Below, piece by piece: positions 17,660 through 51,480 of a DNA stretch of 64,000 nucleotides (position 1 is the first letter of the stretch; every line of letters begins with the position of its first letter). Source of the stretch: Dialister sp. (GTDB taxonomy: Bacteria > Bacillota > Negativicutes > Veillonellales > Dialisteraceae); contig NZ_CP181256.1 of NCBI RefSeq assembly GCF_047832375.1, positions 2,235,750-2,299,749 on the forward strand, given 5' to 3'. Both the position numbers and the translations under genes were made by a program. The notes under the pieces are model-generated. The model was not told the origin of the DNA. It saw nothing but the letters and a program-made list of their open reading frames with translations, and searched no databases.

Positions 17660-17932
17660 AACTTCATAAGGCAGTGAAGAGAAGAGTAGGCGGGAAAGAA
17701 AGTCAAAGAGAGCCCCGGGTGGTGAAAAGGGGTACCGGACGTCCTTCTGAAGATGGCCTCTGAGCCTTTCTGCTGAATAGTCAGGCAGGACGGGAATTCC
17801 CGTTACAGAAGAGAAGTATCAAGGCATGGCCGGCGTACTTCATAAGGCTTTTCCGGTGACGGAAAGGCGAACCTGGGTGGTACCGCGAAATCAATCCTTC
17901 GTCCCAAATGGGATGGAGGATTTTTTATTGAT
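17660..17932 (+). promoter_or_regulatory. T-box riboswitch leader (candidate Met specifier AUG)
   Basis: Stem I elements AGTA, AGAGAG and GGTGGTGAAA. Candidate specifier context CUGAAG-AUG-G. Conserved T-box sequence TGGGTGGTACCGCG at 17874-17887. Terminator AATCCTTC...GGAGGATTTTTT at 17892-17926. Confidence 0.8.
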
Positions 17933-22422: not shown

Positions 22423-22527
22423 CAGCAGCGGGATGCAGTACCGGCACCGCAAGCCTTTAGAGGCTTTTCGTCCGAATGGCAGCTCCCCGTCCACCCGGCA
22501 CTTCACGCGCAGGTACTTACTCTGCTG
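22423..22527 (-). promoter_or_regulatory. THF (tetrahydrofolate) riboswitch
   Basis: The minus strand reads CAGCAGAGTAAGTACCTGCGCGTGAAGTGCCGG...GGACGAAAAGCC...GGCTTGCGGTGCCGGTACTGCATCCCGCTGCTG. This matches the remembered folT-motif core (AGAGUAG..CGCGUUAAGUG..ACGAAGC..GCGGUG..UGCAUCCGCU). Confidence 0.75.
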
Positions 22528-42828: not shown

Positions 42829-42867
42829 ATGAAGCGCCTTTTCTCAACGTCTATCAGTGGCGATCGA

Positions 42868-43521
42868 GTAGGAGGCGGGCATCGGCCCGCCGACCTCTCA
42901 CACCACCGTACGTACCGTTCGGTATACGGCGGTTCCTTAGTTTTCGCATTCCTGCTTATGCAAGTCTGCGATGATGTTGTTGTTTTCAGCAATCCTCACA
43001 TGGATGGGCACTCCGGCATATCCTTGCTGTTCCGCAGCTACTTTCTGCCAGTAGTCTTCTTTCTGAAGTTGTCTGCCTTTAAGCCCATGGTTGGTTACTT
43101 TCATTGACTAACATCTCCTAAAGTTCGGCCCTTCCCAGATGCCCATGAGCCATCTGGTACTATGGCCTCTGCTGACTTCTCACGGCAAATCTTATTTCAA
43201 CCACAGCACAGCCCAGTAAATACAGCCTTATTCTGCTGTGTCCGTGAGACCTCCCCAGGTAAGAACGTATTCTTTCTCTCCATCTATCCGCCACATCTAC
43301 TCTACAGGATTCCGTACAGCTATGGGACTTCAGTTTGTTTGGCAACCTTATCCACCCTGTATTAGCCTTATGTGGTTCTTGTACATCGGACCGGAGATTT
43401 GCCTGCACCTTCCTTCAGATTCCACCTCACGATGGACACCCTTGGTGTTCAGCTATGACCTTCCCGCTGTCGGGTAGTCTTGGGACTTTCACCCTTGAGA
43501 ATACGCCCATGCTGGGCGCAC
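42868..43521 (-). mobile_element. class C (IIC) group II intron, ORF-less / IEP-deleted derivative
   Basis: The minus strand starts GTGCGCCCAGCATGGGCG...GGGTGAAAGTCCC...GGAATCTGAAGGAAGG...TTCTTACCTGGGGAGGTCTC...GAAGTCAGCAGAGGCCATAGTACC. Domain V is CCGCCGTATACCGAACGGTACGTACGGTGG (42933-42904), followed by a domain VI hairpin. Domain IV holds only a 55-codon ORF (43107-42943). The 3' end is approximate. Confidence 0.85.
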
Positions 43522-43522
43522 C

Positions 43523-43566
43523 AAAAAAACTCCCGTTCCGAAACCATCGGAATGGGAGTTTTTTAT
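43523..43566 (-). terminator. intrinsic terminator of mdcA; also the apparent homing site of the IIC intron
   Basis: On the minus strand: AAAAAACTCCCATTCCGA-tggtt-TCGGAACGGGAGTTTTTTT, then G, then the intron 5' GTGCG. Confidence 0.85.
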
Positions 43567-43584: not shown

Positions 43585-45258
43585 TTACCAGTTTCTGAAT
43601 TTAGCCGGCGGATCATAGAGGCCGCCGGACCAGTCTACGAGGTCCTTCATATTCTTGGCAGCCAGGAGGTCCCTTGTGGCTGCTGCGGGGTTGATGCCCA
43701 GGTCTTCCGGAAGCTTCACGATGCCTTCCTTCCGGAGTCTCTTTGTGACTTCCGGATCTTCCTGTTTGCCCACATCCGTCTTACCTGCAACGGCACGGAT
43801 AGCATCCATTCTTTCTTCCATGTTGTGGCACTTATGGAGGTAGGCGATACCCACTTCAGATACGATATGGGTGAGGTCATCGGAGTAAATCATAATCGGT
43901 TCCAGGTCCAGGTTGGCGTTCTTCTTCAGGGCCACTGCATCCAGCTGGTCCACGAAGCCCGGGAAGCCTTTGGCAGAAACGGTGGTAATCATCTGGACCA
44001 CCAGCTTCTTGCCGCGGTTCCGGTCGCCCATGAGTTCATAGCGGTTGGCTACTTCTTCGCCGCACTTCTTCCATGCTTCCGTTACATGGCGGCGGCCCTT
44101 GGCATCGCAGCCCATGTTCGGAGCACCGCCGAATCCGGCCACATTGTTCTTTGTGGCGGTAGAGGAGTTGCCGAACCGGTCGATCTGCATGGTGGAGCCG
44201 ATGAACATGTCTGCCGCATAATGGCCGGCAGCCTGGCAGAAGGCACGGTTGGAACGCATGGTGCCATCAGGTCCGATAGCAAAGATATCCGGACGGGCTT
44301 TGATGTATTCTTCCATGCCCACTTCGGAGCCGAAGGAATAGACCGCCTGTACCCAGCCTGTTTCAATGGCAGGAATCAGGGTAGGATGGGGATTCAGTAC
44401 CCAGTGGGTGCAGATCTTGCCCTTGAGACCCAGGGATTCACCGAAGGTCGGAAGAAGCAGTTCTACCGCTGCCGTATCATAGCCTACGCCATGGTTCAGG
44501 ACTTTAACGCCATATTCTGCATAAATGCCTTTGATGGCCATCATGGCCTTCATGATGCGGTCGTCCGTAATCTTGGCAGGGTCACGGGTGAAGAGGGGAT
44601 TCAGGAGGTACGGAGTCGGTGCTTCAATGACGAAGTCCACCCAGTCCGCCGGGATATCCACTCTCGGTACCTTGTCTACAATCTTGTTGACCTGGAAAAT
44701 GACGATGCCCTGGTTGAATTTCGTAGCTTCTACGATGGCCGGTGTATCTTCCGTGGAGAAACCGGTGTAAATGTTGCCATCCTTATCGGCTGCATCAGCG
44801 CAGACCAGGGAAACTCTCGGTACCAGGTCGATGAAGTAGCGGGAATACATTTCCAGGTACGTATGGATAGCACCCAGTTCGATGCCCCCATTCTGTACCA
44901 TCTGGGCCAGCCGCTTGCCCTGGCTTCCGGCATAGGCGAAGTCCAGTTTCCGGGCAATCCCTTTATCAAAGACATCCAGGTGTTCCGGAATGGAAAGGGT
45001 GGACTGAATCATATGGAGATCATGGACTTTGGAAGGATCAACCTTGCACAGTTCCTTTGCCAGGAAATCAGCCTGTTTCTGGTTATCCCCTTCAATGTTT
45101 ACTTTATCACCGGGACGAAGAACTGCTTCCAGCAGTTTTACCGTATTATCGGCATCTACGATCTTTCCATCTGCATACACCCGGGCAGCAGCCAGTCTGG
45201 CAGCGGTATCGTCGCCTCTGGTATGCCAGTTCTTATTGGACGGTTTGATTTCTAACAT
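43585..45258 (-). CDS. mdcA: malonate decarboxylase alpha subunit homologue (acetyl-S-ACP:malonate ACP transferase / CoA-transferase fold)
   Basis: 557 aa. IEGDNQKQADFL, GIARKLDFAYAG, LFTRDP, HPTLIPAIETGW, GFGGAPNMG and C-terminal LVDWSGGLYDPPAKFRNW match my recollection of MdcA along the whole length. Confidence 0.85.
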   Translation of the reverse strand: MLEIKPSNKNWHTRGDDTAARLAAARVYADGKIVDADNTVKLLEAVLRPGDKVNIEGDNQKQADFLAKELCKVDPSKVHDLHMIQSTLSIPEHLDVFDKGIARKLDFAYAGSQGKRLAQMVQNGGIELGAIHTYLEMYSRYFIDLVPRVSLVCADAADKDGNIYTGFSTEDTPAIVEATKFNQGIVIFQVNKIVDKVPRVDIPADWVDFVIEAPTPYLLNPLFTRDPAKITDDRIMKAMMAIKGIYAEYGVKVLNHGVGYDTAAVELLLPTFGESLGLKGKICTHWVLNPHPTLIPAIETGWVQAVYSFGSEVGMEEYIKARPDIFAIGPDGTMRSNRAFCQAAGHYAADMFIGSTMQIDRFGNSSTATKNNVAGFGGAPNMGCDAKGRRHVTEAWKKCGEEVANRYELMGDRNRGKKLVVQMITTVSAKGFPGFVDQLDAVALKKNANLDLEPIMIYSDDLTHIVSEVGIAYLHKCHNMEERMDAIRAVAGKTDVGKQEDPEVTKRLRKEGIVKLPEDLGINPAAATRDLLAAKNMKDLVDWSGGLYDPPAKFRNW

Positions 45259-45490
45259 AGCATGAAGTCCTTTCTTTTATAACAAGAGAAATGAAAGTGT
45301 CAGCAGCTCAGGCTGCTTTGTATACAGGTCTCATATTTTTATTATAGCCCCTTCTGAAATTGGTTTTCAGGTCCGGGGTACCCACCGCGGGCACCCCGTC
45401 CCCGAAAAGGAAGGGAATCATTCCGGCTCGGCTCCCTGTGAGAGGCGGGAATGTAAATTCCCAGGACCGCCTCCCCGGAATGGGAAGTCC

Positions 45491-46255
45491 TCAGAAAAAC
45501 AGGGTAGTGAGGAAGTAGAACACCGATGGGAAGAGCAGGCATCCCAGACCGGTATAGAAGGTAGCCGTCATGGCTGCGTAGGGCACAAGCCTCGGGTTCA
45601 CGGCTGCCATACCGGCTGCAGTGCCGGAGGTGGTTCCCATGATGCCGCCGAAAGCCATGGCAGACTGGGGGTTATCAATGGACAGCGGTTTTGCCACGAA
45701 AGGCGTTACCACCATGACCAGTACCGATTTCACAACGCCGGCAGCGATAGAAATCGCAATGACTTCAGAGGAAGCGCCCAGGGCGGCCCCGGTAACCGGT
45801 CCTACCACGAAGGTGGCCACGCCGGCGCCGATGGTGACAAGGTCCACGGCACTGGTGTATCCCAGGGGATAAGCCACTGCAATGCCTGCTACGAGGCAGA
45901 CAAATTCACCGAAGAACAGGGAAGCCACGCCGCGCCATCCGATTTTCTTGATTTCCCGAAGGTCTGCACCGAAGGCAGTGGAGACGATGGCGAAATCCCG
46001 GAACATGGCGCCGCCCACAAGACCCATACCTGCAAAGAGAGGTATGTCGGCAATCCCTTTATGTCCACCGGTAGTGACACCGCCGATATAGGCCAGGACC
46101 AGGCCCAGGAAAATGGCAATGGCGCTGCCATGGATGCGGCCCTTGGTAAGGCCCGCCAGTTTATAGGAAATATACATGACAATGCCCAGCAGTGCAAAGG
46201 CAAAAACCATGCCGTTTTTTACGAAAAGTTTTGTAATGATTGCTGCAAGATCCAT
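45491..46255 (-). CDS. madM: malonate transporter subunit MadM
   Basis: 254 aa. GRIHGSAIAIFLGLVLAYIGG, GGAMFRDFAIVSTAFG and RLVPYAAMTATFYTGLGCLL resemble the MadM family. Adjacent to madL and mdcA. Confidence 0.75.
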   Translation of the reverse strand: MDLAAIITKLFVKNGMVFAFALLGIVMYISYKLAGLTKGRIHGSAIAIFLGLVLAYIGGVTTGGHKGIADIPLFAGMGLVGGAMFRDFAIVSTAFGADLREIKKIGWRGVASLFFGEFVCLVAGIAVAYPLGYTSAVDLVTIGAGVATFVVGPVTGAALGASSEVIAISIAAGVVKSVLVMVVTPFVAKPLSIDNPQSAMAFGGIMGTTSGTAAGMAAVNPRLVPYAAMTATFYTGLGCLLFPSVFYFLTTLFF

Positions 46256-46270
46256 GATTTTCTGCCTCCT

Positions 46271-46666
46271 TTACTTCTGGTCTTTAACCACTTCATCATC
46301 CCTGGCCCAGGCTTCCCCATGGCCCTTGGAGAAGAATGGAATGGCCAGATAGCCGATGACTACAGCCAGTACAGCGCCTCCGAGAGCGACGATGCCGCCG
46401 GAAAGAGCAGCTGCCACGTTCTGGATGGAACTCATGGCTACAACGATGGGAATGTACATGGCACTCCAGAATTTGATGCCCTGTTCTTCCGGGGCTTTCA
46501 TATATCCCTTCTGGATGGCCCAGGTGGAAGCCAGGATCAGGAACAGCATGGCGAAACCTACGCCGCCGATGTTTGCATTAATTCCCAAAAGGGCCCCCAG
46601 TACATCGCCCACGAAGTTTCCGGCCAGATAGCAGCAGGCAAGCAGTGCAACACCATAAACAACCAT
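46271..46666 (-). CDS. madL: malonate transporter subunit MadL
   Basis: 131-aa 4-TM protein from MVVYGVALLACCYLAGNFVGDVLG behind a GGAAGGG RBS (track start 46747). Sits 15 nt upstream of madM. Confidence 0.7.
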   Translation of the reverse strand: MVVYGVALLACCYLAGNFVGDVLGALLGINANIGGVGFAMLFLILASTWAIQKGYMKAPEEQGIKFWSAMYIPIVVAMSSIQNVAAALSGGIVALGGAVLAVVIGYLAIPFFSKGHGEAWARDDEVVKDQK

Positions 46667-47034
46667 AATAACACCCTTCCTTTCCTTCGAAAAACGGCTC
46701 CTTCTTTCCCTGATTGCCCTCCGGGAAAGGTCTTGTCCGCTTTTCAAAAATTTGGACCTGACAGGCTTCCTATTTGTTATAATAAAATCAAATAGGCCTT
46801 ATCAAAAATCCTTTTGTTTTCTTCGGCTTTAGTATACCCGCTTTTCTTTAAAGATTAAAATAAAATTAGCCAAGATGCGGAAAACAGGGGGTAAGATGCG
46901 ATAGAAATGCATGAATTCCCCAATTCATAATTTTAGGCGGAAATTCATAGAAATTATTGATAATTTCTATGATATATCATAATTTATATATTATGTATTG
47001 TGACTGATCGGATTTTTCTGTAATTTCAGAAAGG

Positions 47035-51132: not shown

Positions 51133-51480
51133 AATAACCCTCCTTCAATATTCGGCAGGGCAATCAAAAAGCCCCTGCCACAATAGACAGAGGCGGATGT
51201 TCCGCGGTACCACTCTGATTTATCACTCAGACACAAAGCATAAAGACGATGGAAAAAGAAAAACCCCTGTCCGAATGATCGGACAGGGGCGAAATCGCGG
51301 TACCACCCTGCATTATACTCATATGTCATAGTCCTGTAACGGGCACTCCCGCTTTCCTTACTGCTGCTTCAGGAAAGATGCTCCCAAGTGATTGTCCATG
51401 ACCCGTGTGTACCGGCTTTCACCATACGCCGGCTCTCTGGGACATCGTCAGCCATGTCCATCTTGCTCATCGCTCTTTAT
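51133..51480 (-). promoter_or_regulatory. T-box leader with a second, downstream T-box-like box
   Basis: On the minus strand: AGAGAG...GGTGAAAGCCGG stem I elements. GCAGGGTGGTACCGCG (51311-51296) with terminator CCCCTGTCCGA-tcat-TCGGACAGGGGTTTTT. About 95 nt later a second AGAGTGGTACCGCGG (51217-51203) precedes hairpin GGCAGGGGC...GCCCTGCC just upstream of the RBS. Confidence 0.75.

What the first reader, a model, noticed from the sequence alone, without database searches (positions are those of the whole stretch)
42868..43521. ORF-less class C group II intron inserted immediately after the mdcA intrinsic terminator
The minus strand reads terminator hairpin, T7, G, then GTGCGCCCAGCATGGGCG... 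with conserved domain I strings (GGGTGAAAGTCCC, GGAATCTGAAGGAAGG, TTCTTACCTGGGGAGGTCTC, GAAGTCAGCAGAGGCCATAGTACC). A canonical domain V follows (CCGCCGTATACCGAACGGTACGTACGGTGG), then a domain VI hairpin. These are very close to what I remember of the Oceanobacillus/Bacillus IIC introns.

IIC introns are known to home just downstream of terminator stem-loops, exactly as seen here. The whole element is only ~650 nt. Domain IV holds a 55-codon ORF (43107-42943, MKVTNHGLKGRQLQKEDYWQKVAAEQQGYAGVP...) that looks like the N-terminus of an intron-encoded protein fused to its last codons. So this appears to be a maturase/RT-deleted derivative that would need a trans-acting IEP to splice or move.
Basis: partly seen in the sequence, partly recalled or inferred. 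Interest (0 to 1): 0.7.

Follow-up and report, generated by a model that had tools for sequence, protein, structure and literature searches.

The report
RT-less group IIC intron, mobilised in trans
A 659-base self-splicing "group II" intron that has lost its reverse-transcriptase gene sits just after the terminator of the malonate gene mdcA in a gut Dialister; it is a recently inserted, still mobile hitch-hiker on full-length sister introns in the same genome, which is a known kind of element seen here in a new host and intron class.

Summary
Rfam places DI, DIII and DV-DVI, and it begins 8 nt after the mdcA terminator stem.

- **Deletion:** the 55-codon ORF in DIV is codons 1-48 of a 470-aa IIC-type IEP fused to its last six codons, an in-frame 1245-nt deletion. 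Full-length siblings (1904 nt) show this directly.
- **Candidate helper:** at least three full-length copies with intact RT/maturase genes lie in the same 2.94-Mb Dialister genome.
- **Recent insertion:** nine other metagenome contigs encoding an identical MdcA carry the precise empty site (…TTTTTTTG|CGCC…). A 100%-identical second copy sits after another terminator with the same flanks (TTG|C).
- **Family:** at least 35 copies share the same deletion junction, lie after many different terminators, and sometimes form head-to-tail arrays.
- **Retargeting:** their 3-nt EBS1 and 1-nt EBS3 are hypervariable and covary with the flanking exon bases.

This is a non-autonomous IIC lineage, the counterpart of the Thermosynechococcus ORF-less introns. 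It is a new member of a known kind. Splicing and mobility are inferred, not shown.

The parts
43585..45258 (-). mdcA (malonate decarboxylase alpha subunit), last gene of madL-madM-mdcA; its transcript would read into the intron
   Evidence: Pfam PF16957 E=1e-291; madM PF03818 and madL PF03817 lie upstream
43524..43564 (-). Intrinsic-terminator hairpin (AAAAAACTCCC…GGGAGTTTTTT). The T run is 43529-43523. This is the stem-loop that IIC introns use as a target.
   Evidence: Sequence; terminator scan; fold of the last 50 nt of the 5' exon, dG -23.5 kcal/mol
43522..43524 (-). IBS1 (5'-TTG-3'), the last three bases of the 5' exon, complementary to EBS1 CAA
   Evidence: EBS1/IBS1 covariation across 20 sites: 55/60 nt paired against 37.7 in shuffles, 0 of 20,000 shuffles as good
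42863..43521 (-). Complete ORF-less group IIC intron, 659 nt, GTGCG…CTCGAT
   Evidence: Rfam; end-to-end alignment of other copies; exact empty site …TTTTTTTG|CGCCACTG… in L143-L145, L147, L148, L150 and L151, with close variants in L144, L149 and L152
43253..43516 (-). Domain I (approximate, intron nt 6-269), including GGGTGAAAGTCCC and GGAATCTGAAGGAAGG
   Evidence: RF02001 147 bits at 43436-43264; alifold consensus closes 6-10 with 264-268; compensatory pairs 19:255, 21:253 and 163:219
43339..43341 (-). EBS1 (CAA, intron nt 181-183) in hairpin loop GC-CAA-ACA. This is the most variable spot among copies (CAA, CAT, TAT, TCG, TTG, ATG).
   Evidence: Alignment; covariation with the 5' exon; the O. 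iheyensis 5'-exon oligo is complementary to the homologous loop (PMC4748821)
43297..43297 (-). Putative EBS3 (G, intron nt 225, in GAGTA-G-ATG). It varies G/C/A among copies and pairs with the first base of the 3' exon.
   Evidence: 14/20 sites paired against 7.7 in shuffles, p about 0.001. The assignment of this position as EBS3 is by analogy and inference.
43179..43246 (-). Domain II hairpin (intron nt 276-343, CACGG…CCGTG)
   Evidence: MFE fold; coordinates of the flanking strings. The alifold consensus pairs this stretch differently, so this is the least certain domain call.
43127..43176 (-). J2/3 plus domain III (GTCAGCAGAGGCCATAGTACC…GGGAAGGGCC)
   Evidence: RF01998 54 bits at 43197-43128; MFE fold
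42935..43126 (-). Domain IV (intron nt 396-587), which retains the ribosome-binding region, the start codon and the first 145 nt of the IEP gene (the presumed IEP-binding DIVa)
   Evidence: Folds; comparison with the full-length copies
42937..43104 (-). 55-codon relic ORF, made of IEP codons 1-48, a junction codon and the last 6 codons. No sign of protein-level selection.
   Evidence: Distinct substitutions among 12 ORF haplotypes: 3 synonymous, 8 non-synonymous. Homologues are only 51-87-aa Dialister ORFs.
42959..42960 (-). Deletion junction (intron nt 562|563), where full-length siblings carry 1245 nt more (IEP codons 49-463)
   Evidence: L033, L035, L050-L056: blast split 1-562 / 563-659 with a 1245-nt gap
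42903..42932 (-). Domain V (CCGCCGTATACCGAACGGTACGTACGGTGG) with a 2-nt bulge
   Evidence: RF00029 43.7 bits; MFE fold
42866..42899 (-). Domain VI, with a bulged A at 42869 (the candidate branch point, 6 nt before the 3' end). The 3' end GAT is 42865-42863.
   Evidence: RF00029 alignment; MFE fold
42862..42862 (-). IBS3 (C), the first base of the 3' exon, pairing with putative EBS3 G
   Evidence: The identical copy L014 also has C here.

Best explanation
This is a non-autonomous group IIC intron. It derives from a 1904-nt Dialister IIC retroelement by one in-frame 1245-nt deletion that removed the RT and maturase domains. The deletion left a complete ribozyme (DI-DVI) plus the start region of the IEP gene in DIV.

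Proposed mechanism (inferred unless stated):
1. It is transcribed by read-through of the mdcA terminator.
2. The IEP made by the full-length copies elsewhere in the same chromosome binds the RNA, promotes splicing and forms an RNP.
3. The RNP reverse-splices into DNA just after terminator-type hairpins. The last 3 bases there pair with EBS1 and the next base pairs with EBS3.
4. The IEP has no endonuclease domain. It copies the RNA into DNA, presumably using replication-fork primers as described for other En-less introns.

The window copy (EBS1 CAA, EBS3 G) has a different specificity (TTG|C) from its full-length helpers (EBS1 CAT, EBS3 A, giving ATG|T). It arrived at mdcA recently.

Shown here: the anatomy, the deletion, co-resident intact IEP genes, presence/absence polymorphism with exact boundaries, an identical second copy, and EBS-IBS covariation.

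Inferred, not shown: transcription, IEP binding in trans, splicing and reverse splicing.
For: - **Ribozyme:** Rfam places DI, DIII and DV-DVI. The fold z-score is -3.7, with canonical DV and DVI. Across 20 distinct copies only 15 of 4080 pair cells are unpaired in the consensus fold, and three compensatory pairs separate the window lineage from the rest.
- **Deletion derivative:** L033 and L035 carry 1245 nt more between nt 562 and 563. Their 470-aa IEP shares codons 1-48 and the C-terminal KQ.CEN with the relic ORF.
- **IEP type:** RVT_1 + GIIM only, with no En domain. Best solved relatives are GsI-IIC RT 6AR1 (8e-123) and 7UIM.
- **Helper present:** L050, L052 and L053 are full-length copies with intact IEP genes on JGI contig Ga0642476_0001. 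The same contig holds the window locus (L015, L146).
- **Mobility after the deletion:** all 35 ORF-less copies share the junction. They lie after many different terminator hairpins; counting full-length copies too, 27 distinct upstream flanks were folded. L014 in the same genome is 100% identical and has the same TTG|C flanks. Nine contigs with an identical MdcA protein have the precise empty site.
- **Base-pair targeting:** EBS1-IBS1 is 55/60 paired, against a shuffle mean of 37.7 and maximum of 52. EBS3-IBS3 is 14/20, against 7.7.
- **Precedent:** Thermosynechococcus ORF-less introns have one deletion break-point and divergent EBS families, and are mobilised by 'driver' IEPs (PMC2882425).
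Against: - No expression, splicing or mobility data exist for this element.
- The co-resident full-length ribozymes differ from the window copy at 41 of 659 positions, so cross-recognition by their IEP is assumed.
- Whether DIVa is the IEP's high-affinity site in IIC introns rests on analogy with other classes.
- The EBS3 position was assigned by analogy plus covariation, and 6 of 20 sites do not pair.
- One array (L006) has EBS1 sequences that do not fit its exon.
- Many short-read contigs are chimeric across the repeat. The covariation set was restricted, but it still includes some short-read contigs.
Confidence: 0.82

Rival explanations
1. Dead relic. A full-length intron inserted at mdcA and later lost its ORF in place, so the element is immobile debris.
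For: ORF-less bacterial introns are generally regarded as having lost mobility (review PMC4424553).
Against: - The identical deletion junction occurs in all 35 ORF-less copies, at many different sites.
- A 100%-identical twin lies at a second site in the same genome.
- The mdcA site is empty in nine contigs with an identical MdcA, so the 659-nt form itself inserted.
Confidence: 0.03
2. The copies were spread by DNA-level processes (recombination, duplication, or carriage on IS elements or phage), not by reverse splicing.
For: One copy lies in a prophage (L002). Another is embedded among IS66 and IS21 elements (L016-L023).
Against: - Every copy ends exactly at GTGCG…CTCGAT, and the mdcA empty-site comparison shows no target duplication.
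- The flanking DNA is unrelated between sites.
- EBS1 and EBS3 covary with the adjacent exon bases, which only RNA-guided insertion or splicing selection explains.
Confidence: 0.03
3. The ribozyme is functional, but the co-resident full-length IEP is not the helper. The intron either self-splices without protein and no longer moves in this strain, or it is mobilised by a different reverse transcriptase.
For: - There is 6% divergence between the window copy and the co-resident full-length ribozymes.
- Five fixed differences lie near the junction and in DVI.
- C.te.I1 is a precedent for an ORF-less bacterial intron with no IEP gene in its genome (PMC4424553).
Against: - The DIV 5' part, including the start-codon region, is nearly identical to that of the full-length copies: 5-6 differences in the first 144 nt of the ORF.
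- Mixed arrays of full-length and ORF-less copies exist (L057, L061).
- T. elongatus IEPs mobilise diverged ORF-less introns (PMC2882425).
Confidence: 0.1
4. The conserved 55-codon ORF encodes a functional small protein, or acts as a decoy for the IEP, and that is why the element persists.
For: The reading frame, start codon and upstream AGGAG are intact in 34 of 35 copies. The identical or near-identical 55-aa product is called on several hundred contigs. In T. elongatus the relic frame is broken.
Against: - Substitutions among haplotypes are 3 synonymous and 8 non-synonymous, spread over all codon positions.
- Frame-shifted variants exist (P0007-P0010).
- There is no Pfam match.
- The sequence is merely the pre-RT0 N-terminal extension of the IEP.
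- The copies are young, so an intact frame is expected by default.
Confidence: 0.04

Closest known systems
Thermosynechococcus elongatus ORF-less TeI3 introns with TeI4 'driver' IEPs (Mohr, Ghanem and Lambowitz 2010, PMC2882425)
   Same: - One ancestral ORF deletion with the same break-points in all copies.
- N- and C-terminal ORF remnants in DIV.
- ORF-less copies outnumber ORF-containing ones.
- Families with different EBS sequences sit at matching IBS sites.
- Intact IEP genes are co-resident and can act in trans.
   Different: - Those are IIB-like (CL) introns using EBS1/2/3, in a thermophilic cyanobacterium. This is a IIC intron with a 3-nt EBS1 plus hairpin recognition, in a human-gut Negativicute.
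- Here the relic reading frame is intact.
- Trans-mobilisation was shown experimentally there and is only inferred here.
Canonical group IIC retroelements (B.h.I1, O.i.I1, GsI-IIC, E.r. IIC; Robart et al. 2007 as cited in PMC12584367 and PMC4748821)
   Same: - Compact ribozyme and the same DV sequence type.
- En-less RT/maturase closest to GsI-IIC RT.
- Insertion a few nt after rho-independent terminator hairpins, with a very short IBS1.
   Different: The window copy lacks the IEP (codons 49-463 deleted) and so cannot be autonomous.
Tandem re-integration of the E. coli groEL IIB1 intron (PMC12584367)
   Same: Head-to-tail arrays with no spacer. A second copy can enter the occupied site because EBS3 can pair with the G that starts the resident intron. 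Here all array members have EBS3 = C.
   Different: That was observed in over-expression assays with a IIB1 intron and a U:G wobble. Here the arrays are natural, IIC, and would use a C:G pair. The window copy itself (EBS3 = G) is single.
Other ORF-less IIC-like introns, for example on Bacillus smithii plasmid pDSM4216 (L012, 2501-3140)
   Same: About 640 nt, placed after a terminator, with the same DI, DV and DVI sequence type.
   Different: The DIV content is unrelated, so that is an independent deletion. No family expansion was examined.

Membership tests
Group II intron (ribozyme) | 5' GUGYG, DV with catalytic triad and 2-nt bulge, DVI with a bulged A 6-8 nt from the 3' end, 3' AY | tested here: met
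   GTGCG at 43521. RF00029 43.7 bits (gathering 40) over DV-DVI, ending …CTCGAT. The MFE fold shows the DV bulge and the DVI bulged A at 42869.
Group II intron (ribozyme) | Domain I-IV architecture recognised by covariance models | tested here: met
   RF02001 147 bits and RF01998 54 bits; compensatory pairs in the DI stems.
Group II intron (ribozyme) | Catalytic self-splicing | not testable with these tools
   Needs in vitro splicing or RT-PCR.
Structural class IIC / bacterial class C | Insertion shortly after an intrinsic-terminator-type stem-loop | tested here: met
   The window copy begins 8 nt after the GC stem. All 27 distinct upstream flanks fold into hairpins; 26 are between -18 and -33 kcal/mol, and the weakest (-8 kcal/mol) is a truncated flank. 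Insertion follows within a few nt.
Structural class IIC / bacterial class C | Very short IBS1-EBS1 (3-4 bp) plus single-base IBS3-EBS3 | tested here: met
   Three EBS1 bases and one EBS3 base covary with the flanks. No search for an EBS2-IBS2 pairing was made.
Structural class IIC / bacterial class C | IEP of the class C lineage, lacking the DNA endonuclease domain | tested here: met
   The sibling IEP has RVT_1 + GIIM only. Best PDB relatives are GsI-IIC RT 6AR1 (8e-123) and 7UIM (3e-109), against LtrA at 4e-44. No formal phylogeny was made.
Non-autonomous (ORF-less) derivative mobilised in trans | Internal ORF deletion with remnants of both ORF ends | tested here: met
   1245-nt in-frame deletion mapped against L033, L035 and L050.
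Non-autonomous (ORF-less) derivative mobilised in trans | Related intron with an intact IEP gene in the same genome | tested here: met
   L050, L052 and L053 lie on the same 2,937,477-bp contig as the window locus.
Non-autonomous (ORF-less) derivative mobilised in trans | Evidence that the deleted form itself has moved | tested here: met
   Shared junction at many sites, an identical twin (L014), and empty mdcA sites in conspecific contigs.
Non-autonomous (ORF-less) derivative mobilised in trans | IEP-dependent splicing or mobility demonstrated | not testable with these tools
   Requires donor/recipient mobility assays.

The most novel reading that the evidence does not exclude
The ORF-less lineage is not just a by-product. 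It would be a long-lived, SINE-like parasite of the autonomous IIC intron. It has diverged 4-6% from its drivers and outnumbers them. It colonises new terminators by mutating a 3-nt EBS1 and a 1-nt EBS3. In its EBS3 = C form it stacks into arrays at a single terminator. Because every copy sits directly behind a terminator, and keeps an intact IEP start region, it could also change read-through or termination of host operons, or titrate the IEP. That would make it a natural model for how non-autonomous retroelements and a shared splicing factor arise from a group II intron.
Probability: 0.15. Interest if true: 0.6.

Novelty: new member of a known kind. Interest (0 to 1): 0.4.

Why it matters
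[quoted passage not shown] The one well-studied proliferating case is a thermophilic cyanobacterium.

This locus shows the same evolutionary route in the terminator-targeting IIC class and in a common human-gut genus:
- one deletion,
- then spread of the small form on a sibling's reverse transcriptase,
- with retargeting by a few bases.

Filled and empty alleles segregate in present-day populations, so the system is directly testable. It also serves as a caution for annotation. The 55-aa "hypothetical protein", annotated on several hundred contigs, is an intron relic. Short-read assemblies are chimeric across this repeat.

Tried and rejected
- **Protein search with the 55-aa ORF.** It found only short Dialister ORFs and no IEP, which at first suggested that no parent exists. 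This was a limit of the word index. The parent was found by a DNA pattern scan instead.
- **Pattern scans.** The viral-contig scan and the genome-contig scan gave nothing. The nearest MdcA in the GTDB representatives is only 95% identical, so the window's species appears not to be represented. The Dialister representatives that do have mdcA carry different terminators and no intron there, so they are not true empty sites.
- **EBS/IBS pairs from short-read contigs (L024-L048).** Many join the 5' flank of one site to the 3' flank of another across the collapsed repeat. Most were excluded from the statistics.
- **Arrays growing by insertion after the intron's own 3' end.** The DVI hairpin plus GAT could act as a pseudo-target. 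This was rejected as the main route. Downstream copies' EBS1 rarely pairs with GAT (0-2 of 3). In L009 both copies fit the terminator's CGA, and all array members have EBS3 = C, matching G1 of a resident intron.
- **Protein-level selection on the relic ORF.** Not supported.
- **Papers.** PMC6082379 (GsI-IIC) and PMC2525955 (ORF-less survey) are not held. I therefore could not check whether a proliferating ORF-less IIC family has already been described.

Full report
**What is in the window**

Read on the minus strand, mdcA ends at 43585 (Pfam PF16957, E=1e-291). It is preceded by madM and madL. It is followed by a strong hairpin (AAAAAACTCCCATTCCGATGGTTTCGGAACGGGAGTTTTTT), seven T and a G, then GTGCG at 43521.

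Rfam places three models on this strand:
- RF02001 group-II-D1D4-3: 147 bits, 43436-43264.
- RF01998 group-II-D1D4-1: 54 bits, 43197-43128.
- RF00029 (DV-DVI): 43.7 bits against a gathering score of 40, at 42934-42863, seen with permissive filters.

The 659-nt RNA folds better than all 20 shuffles (z = -3.7). The fold shows a canonical bulged DV and a DVI with a bulged A six nt from the end. The element therefore runs 43521→42863.

**Boundaries and recency**

Thirteen further copies found through the relic ORF align end to end over nt 1-659 at 96-99.5% identity. In tandem arrays they abut with no spacer.

Contigs encoding an MdcA protein identical to the window's were then retrieved. Only the window's own genome is filled. 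Nine other contigs, from different metagenomes, lack the intron. Seven of them read …GGGAGTTTTTTTG|CGCCACTGATAGACG…, which is exactly the window sequence minus 659 nt, with no target duplication. Two are one T shorter in the run, and one of those also has two base changes just after the site. The insertion at mdcA is therefore a segregating, recent event.

Related Dialister species (MdcA 92-95% identical) have other terminators and no intron there.

**The ORF and the parent**

The 55-aa ORF matched only 51-87-aa Dialister ORFs in the protein database. It does align to the N-terminal, pre-RT0 extension of IEPs from related Clostridium and Natranaerobius introns.

A metagenome pattern scan then found the parent. 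L033 and L035 hold a 1904-nt intron whose ribozyme is about 94% identical. It carries 1245 extra nt between nt 562 and 563 and encodes a 470-aa protein:
- Parent IEP: MKVTNHGLKG…NIIADL|PTDSLLKRILSRDNMN…SLTSYY|KQVCEN*
- Relic ORF: …NIIADL-H-KQECEN*

The relic is therefore an in-frame deletion of codons 49-463.

The IEP has RVT_1 and GIIM domains only. Its best solved relatives are the IIC enzymes GsI-IIC RT (6AR1, 8e-123) and 7UIM. LtrA and the T. elongatus RT are far behind. NCBI names the protein a group II intron RT/maturase of Dialister sp..

**Helper in the same genome**

The window locus is on JGI contig Ga0642476_0001 (2,937,477 bp; L015, L146). The same contig carries at least three full-length copies with intact IEP genes (L050, L052, L053). 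They differ from each other at no more than 2 positions, and from the window copy at 41 of 659.

A second ORF-less copy on that contig (L014) is 100% identical to the window copy.

**A proliferating, retargeting family**

- All 35 ORF-less copies examined share the deletion junction.
- Every non-array copy follows a terminator-type hairpin. All 27 distinct upstream flanks, full-length copies included, fold into one.
- One hybrid-assembled metagenome alone has 12 copies at 8 sites.
- In the metagenome scan, ORF-less copies outnumber full-length ones by about 5 to 1.

Sequence variation among copies is concentrated in two places:
- Three bases of the loop GC-NNN-ACA (intron nt 181-183). This is homologous to the O. 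iheyensis loop complementary to its 5' exon (PMC4748821).
- One base at nt 225.

These track the flanking exons:

| Copy or group | EBS1 / IBS1 | EBS3 / IBS3 |
|---|---|---|
| Window and L014 | CAA / TTG | G / C |
| Full-length copies | CAT / ATG or GTG | A / mostly T |
| Other ORF-less copies | TCG / CGA; ATG / CAT; TAT / ATG | mostly C / G (two are A) |

Over 20 independent sites, 55 of 60 EBS1 positions pair. The shuffle mean is 37.7, and no shuffle out of 20,000 was as good. For EBS3, 14 of 20 sites pair, against 7.7 in shuffles (p about 0.001).

The ribozyme structure is preserved. Only 15 of 4080 pair cells are unpaired across 20 distinct sequences. Three compensatory pairs (19:255, 21:253, 163:219) separate the window lineage from the others.

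**Arrays**

Head-to-tail arrays occur in L006 (three copies), L009 (two copies), and L057 and L061 (mixed full-length and ORF-less). All members have EBS3 = C, which pairs with the G that begins a resident intron.

In L009 both copies fit the terminator's IBS1 (CGA) and not the intron's 3' GAT. This argues for repeated entry at the occupied terminator. That mechanism was shown experimentally for a IIB1 intron (PMC12584367).

The window type (EBS3 = G) is not expected to stack, and it is single.

**How it most likely works**

1. The intron is transcribed through the mdcA terminator.
2. The IEP from the full-length siblings binds it. The 5' part of DIV, with the AGGAG and the start codon, is retained and nearly identical.
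3. The intron is spliced.
4. As an RNP it reverse-splices behind terminator hairpins where three bases plus one base match.
5. The En-less RT completes insertion.

Steps 1-5 are inferred from the anatomy, the population pattern and the T. elongatus precedent (PMC2882425). None was observed directly.

**The relic ORF**

The relic ORF shows no protein-level constraint. There are 3 synonymous and 8 non-synonymous distinct substitutions, and frame-shifted variants exist.

**Comparison and novelty**

ORF-less bacterial group II introns that rely on a related IEP are known but described as rare (PMC4424553). The closest analogue is the T. elongatus TeI3/TeI4 system.

The present case is the same kind of thing in the IIC class and in a human-gut Dialister. 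Its extra features are hairpin targeting, minimal EBS retargeting, natural arrays and live presence/absence polymorphism. I rate it a new member of a known kind, of moderate interest.

**Caveats**

- There is no experimental evidence for splicing or mobility.
- The EBS3 assignment is by analogy plus covariation.
- Some contigs in the covariation set are short-read assemblies.
- One array (L006) does not fit its exon.
- Two key papers could not be read, so I cannot exclude that a similar IIC family has already been reported.

Noticed in passing
window 17665-17909 (+), 51282-51479 (-), 22424-22526 (-): Two T-box leaders (105 and 107 bits) and a THF riboswitch (88 bits) pass the Rfam gathering scores.
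   Followed up: no
window 43585-46747 (-) and flanks: madL-madM-mdcA stands alone. No mdcC/D/E-type genes appeared among the neighbours I examined. It is flanked by a LytS/LytTR two-component pair on one side and by an unknown 253-aa gene plus a LysR regulator on the other. An 'orphan' MdcA with a malonate carrier may act as a CoA-transferase and not as part of a decarboxylase complex.
   Followed up: no
L152 about 4690-4740 (homologue of window 43531-43562): In one strain with an identical MdcA, the centre of the mdcA terminator hairpin is inverted (CCGAAACCATCGG instead of CCGATGGTTTCGG). This is a hairpin-loop inversion polymorphism at the intron's target.
   Followed up: no
L016-L023 (for example L016 7547-7575 and 9770-10242): An ORF-less copy of the window lineage is broken by an IS66-family element, with an 8-bp duplication of intron nt 187-194, right at the EBS1 hairpin. 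Its first 165 nt are replaced by other IS sequence. The same structure occurs in human and pig gut samples.
   Followed up: partly
L002 4584-5242: An ORF-less copy sits after a terminator between the terminase genes and the scaffold/capsid genes of a prophage. The family can therefore ride on phage DNA, although a pattern scan of IMG/VR found none.
   Followed up: partly
L006 3265-5242: A three-copy array whose exon reads …GTCATG|G. All three copies have EBS1 ATG, which fits CAT and not ATG. The third copy lacks its first G, and two copies have 1-nt insertions. This may reflect hybrid-assembly indels or homogenisation. It is unexplained.
   Followed up: partly
L024-L048 (short-read metagenome contigs): Many contigs join the 5' flank of one insertion site to the 3' flank of another, and carry an EBS1 that fits neither. 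These are assembly chimeras across the 659-nt repeat. Full-length copies often assemble as isolated contigs of about 1.8-2.5 kb.
   Followed up: yes
L012 2501-3140 (Bacillus smithii plasmid pDSM4216); L011 about 2420-4300 (Natranaerobius thermophilus plasmid): An independent ORF-less IIC-like intron of about 640 nt lies after a terminator and is unannotated. A related intron has its IEP gene split into fragments.
   Followed up: partly
L059 10-1913, L061 178-2081: Two full-length copies are intermediate between the full-length and ORF-less clades. L061 carries EBS1 TCG and EBS3 C, like ORF-less copies. These are either recombinants or gene-conversion products, or assembly chimeras on contigs of about 2.2-2.4 kb.
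   Followed up: no
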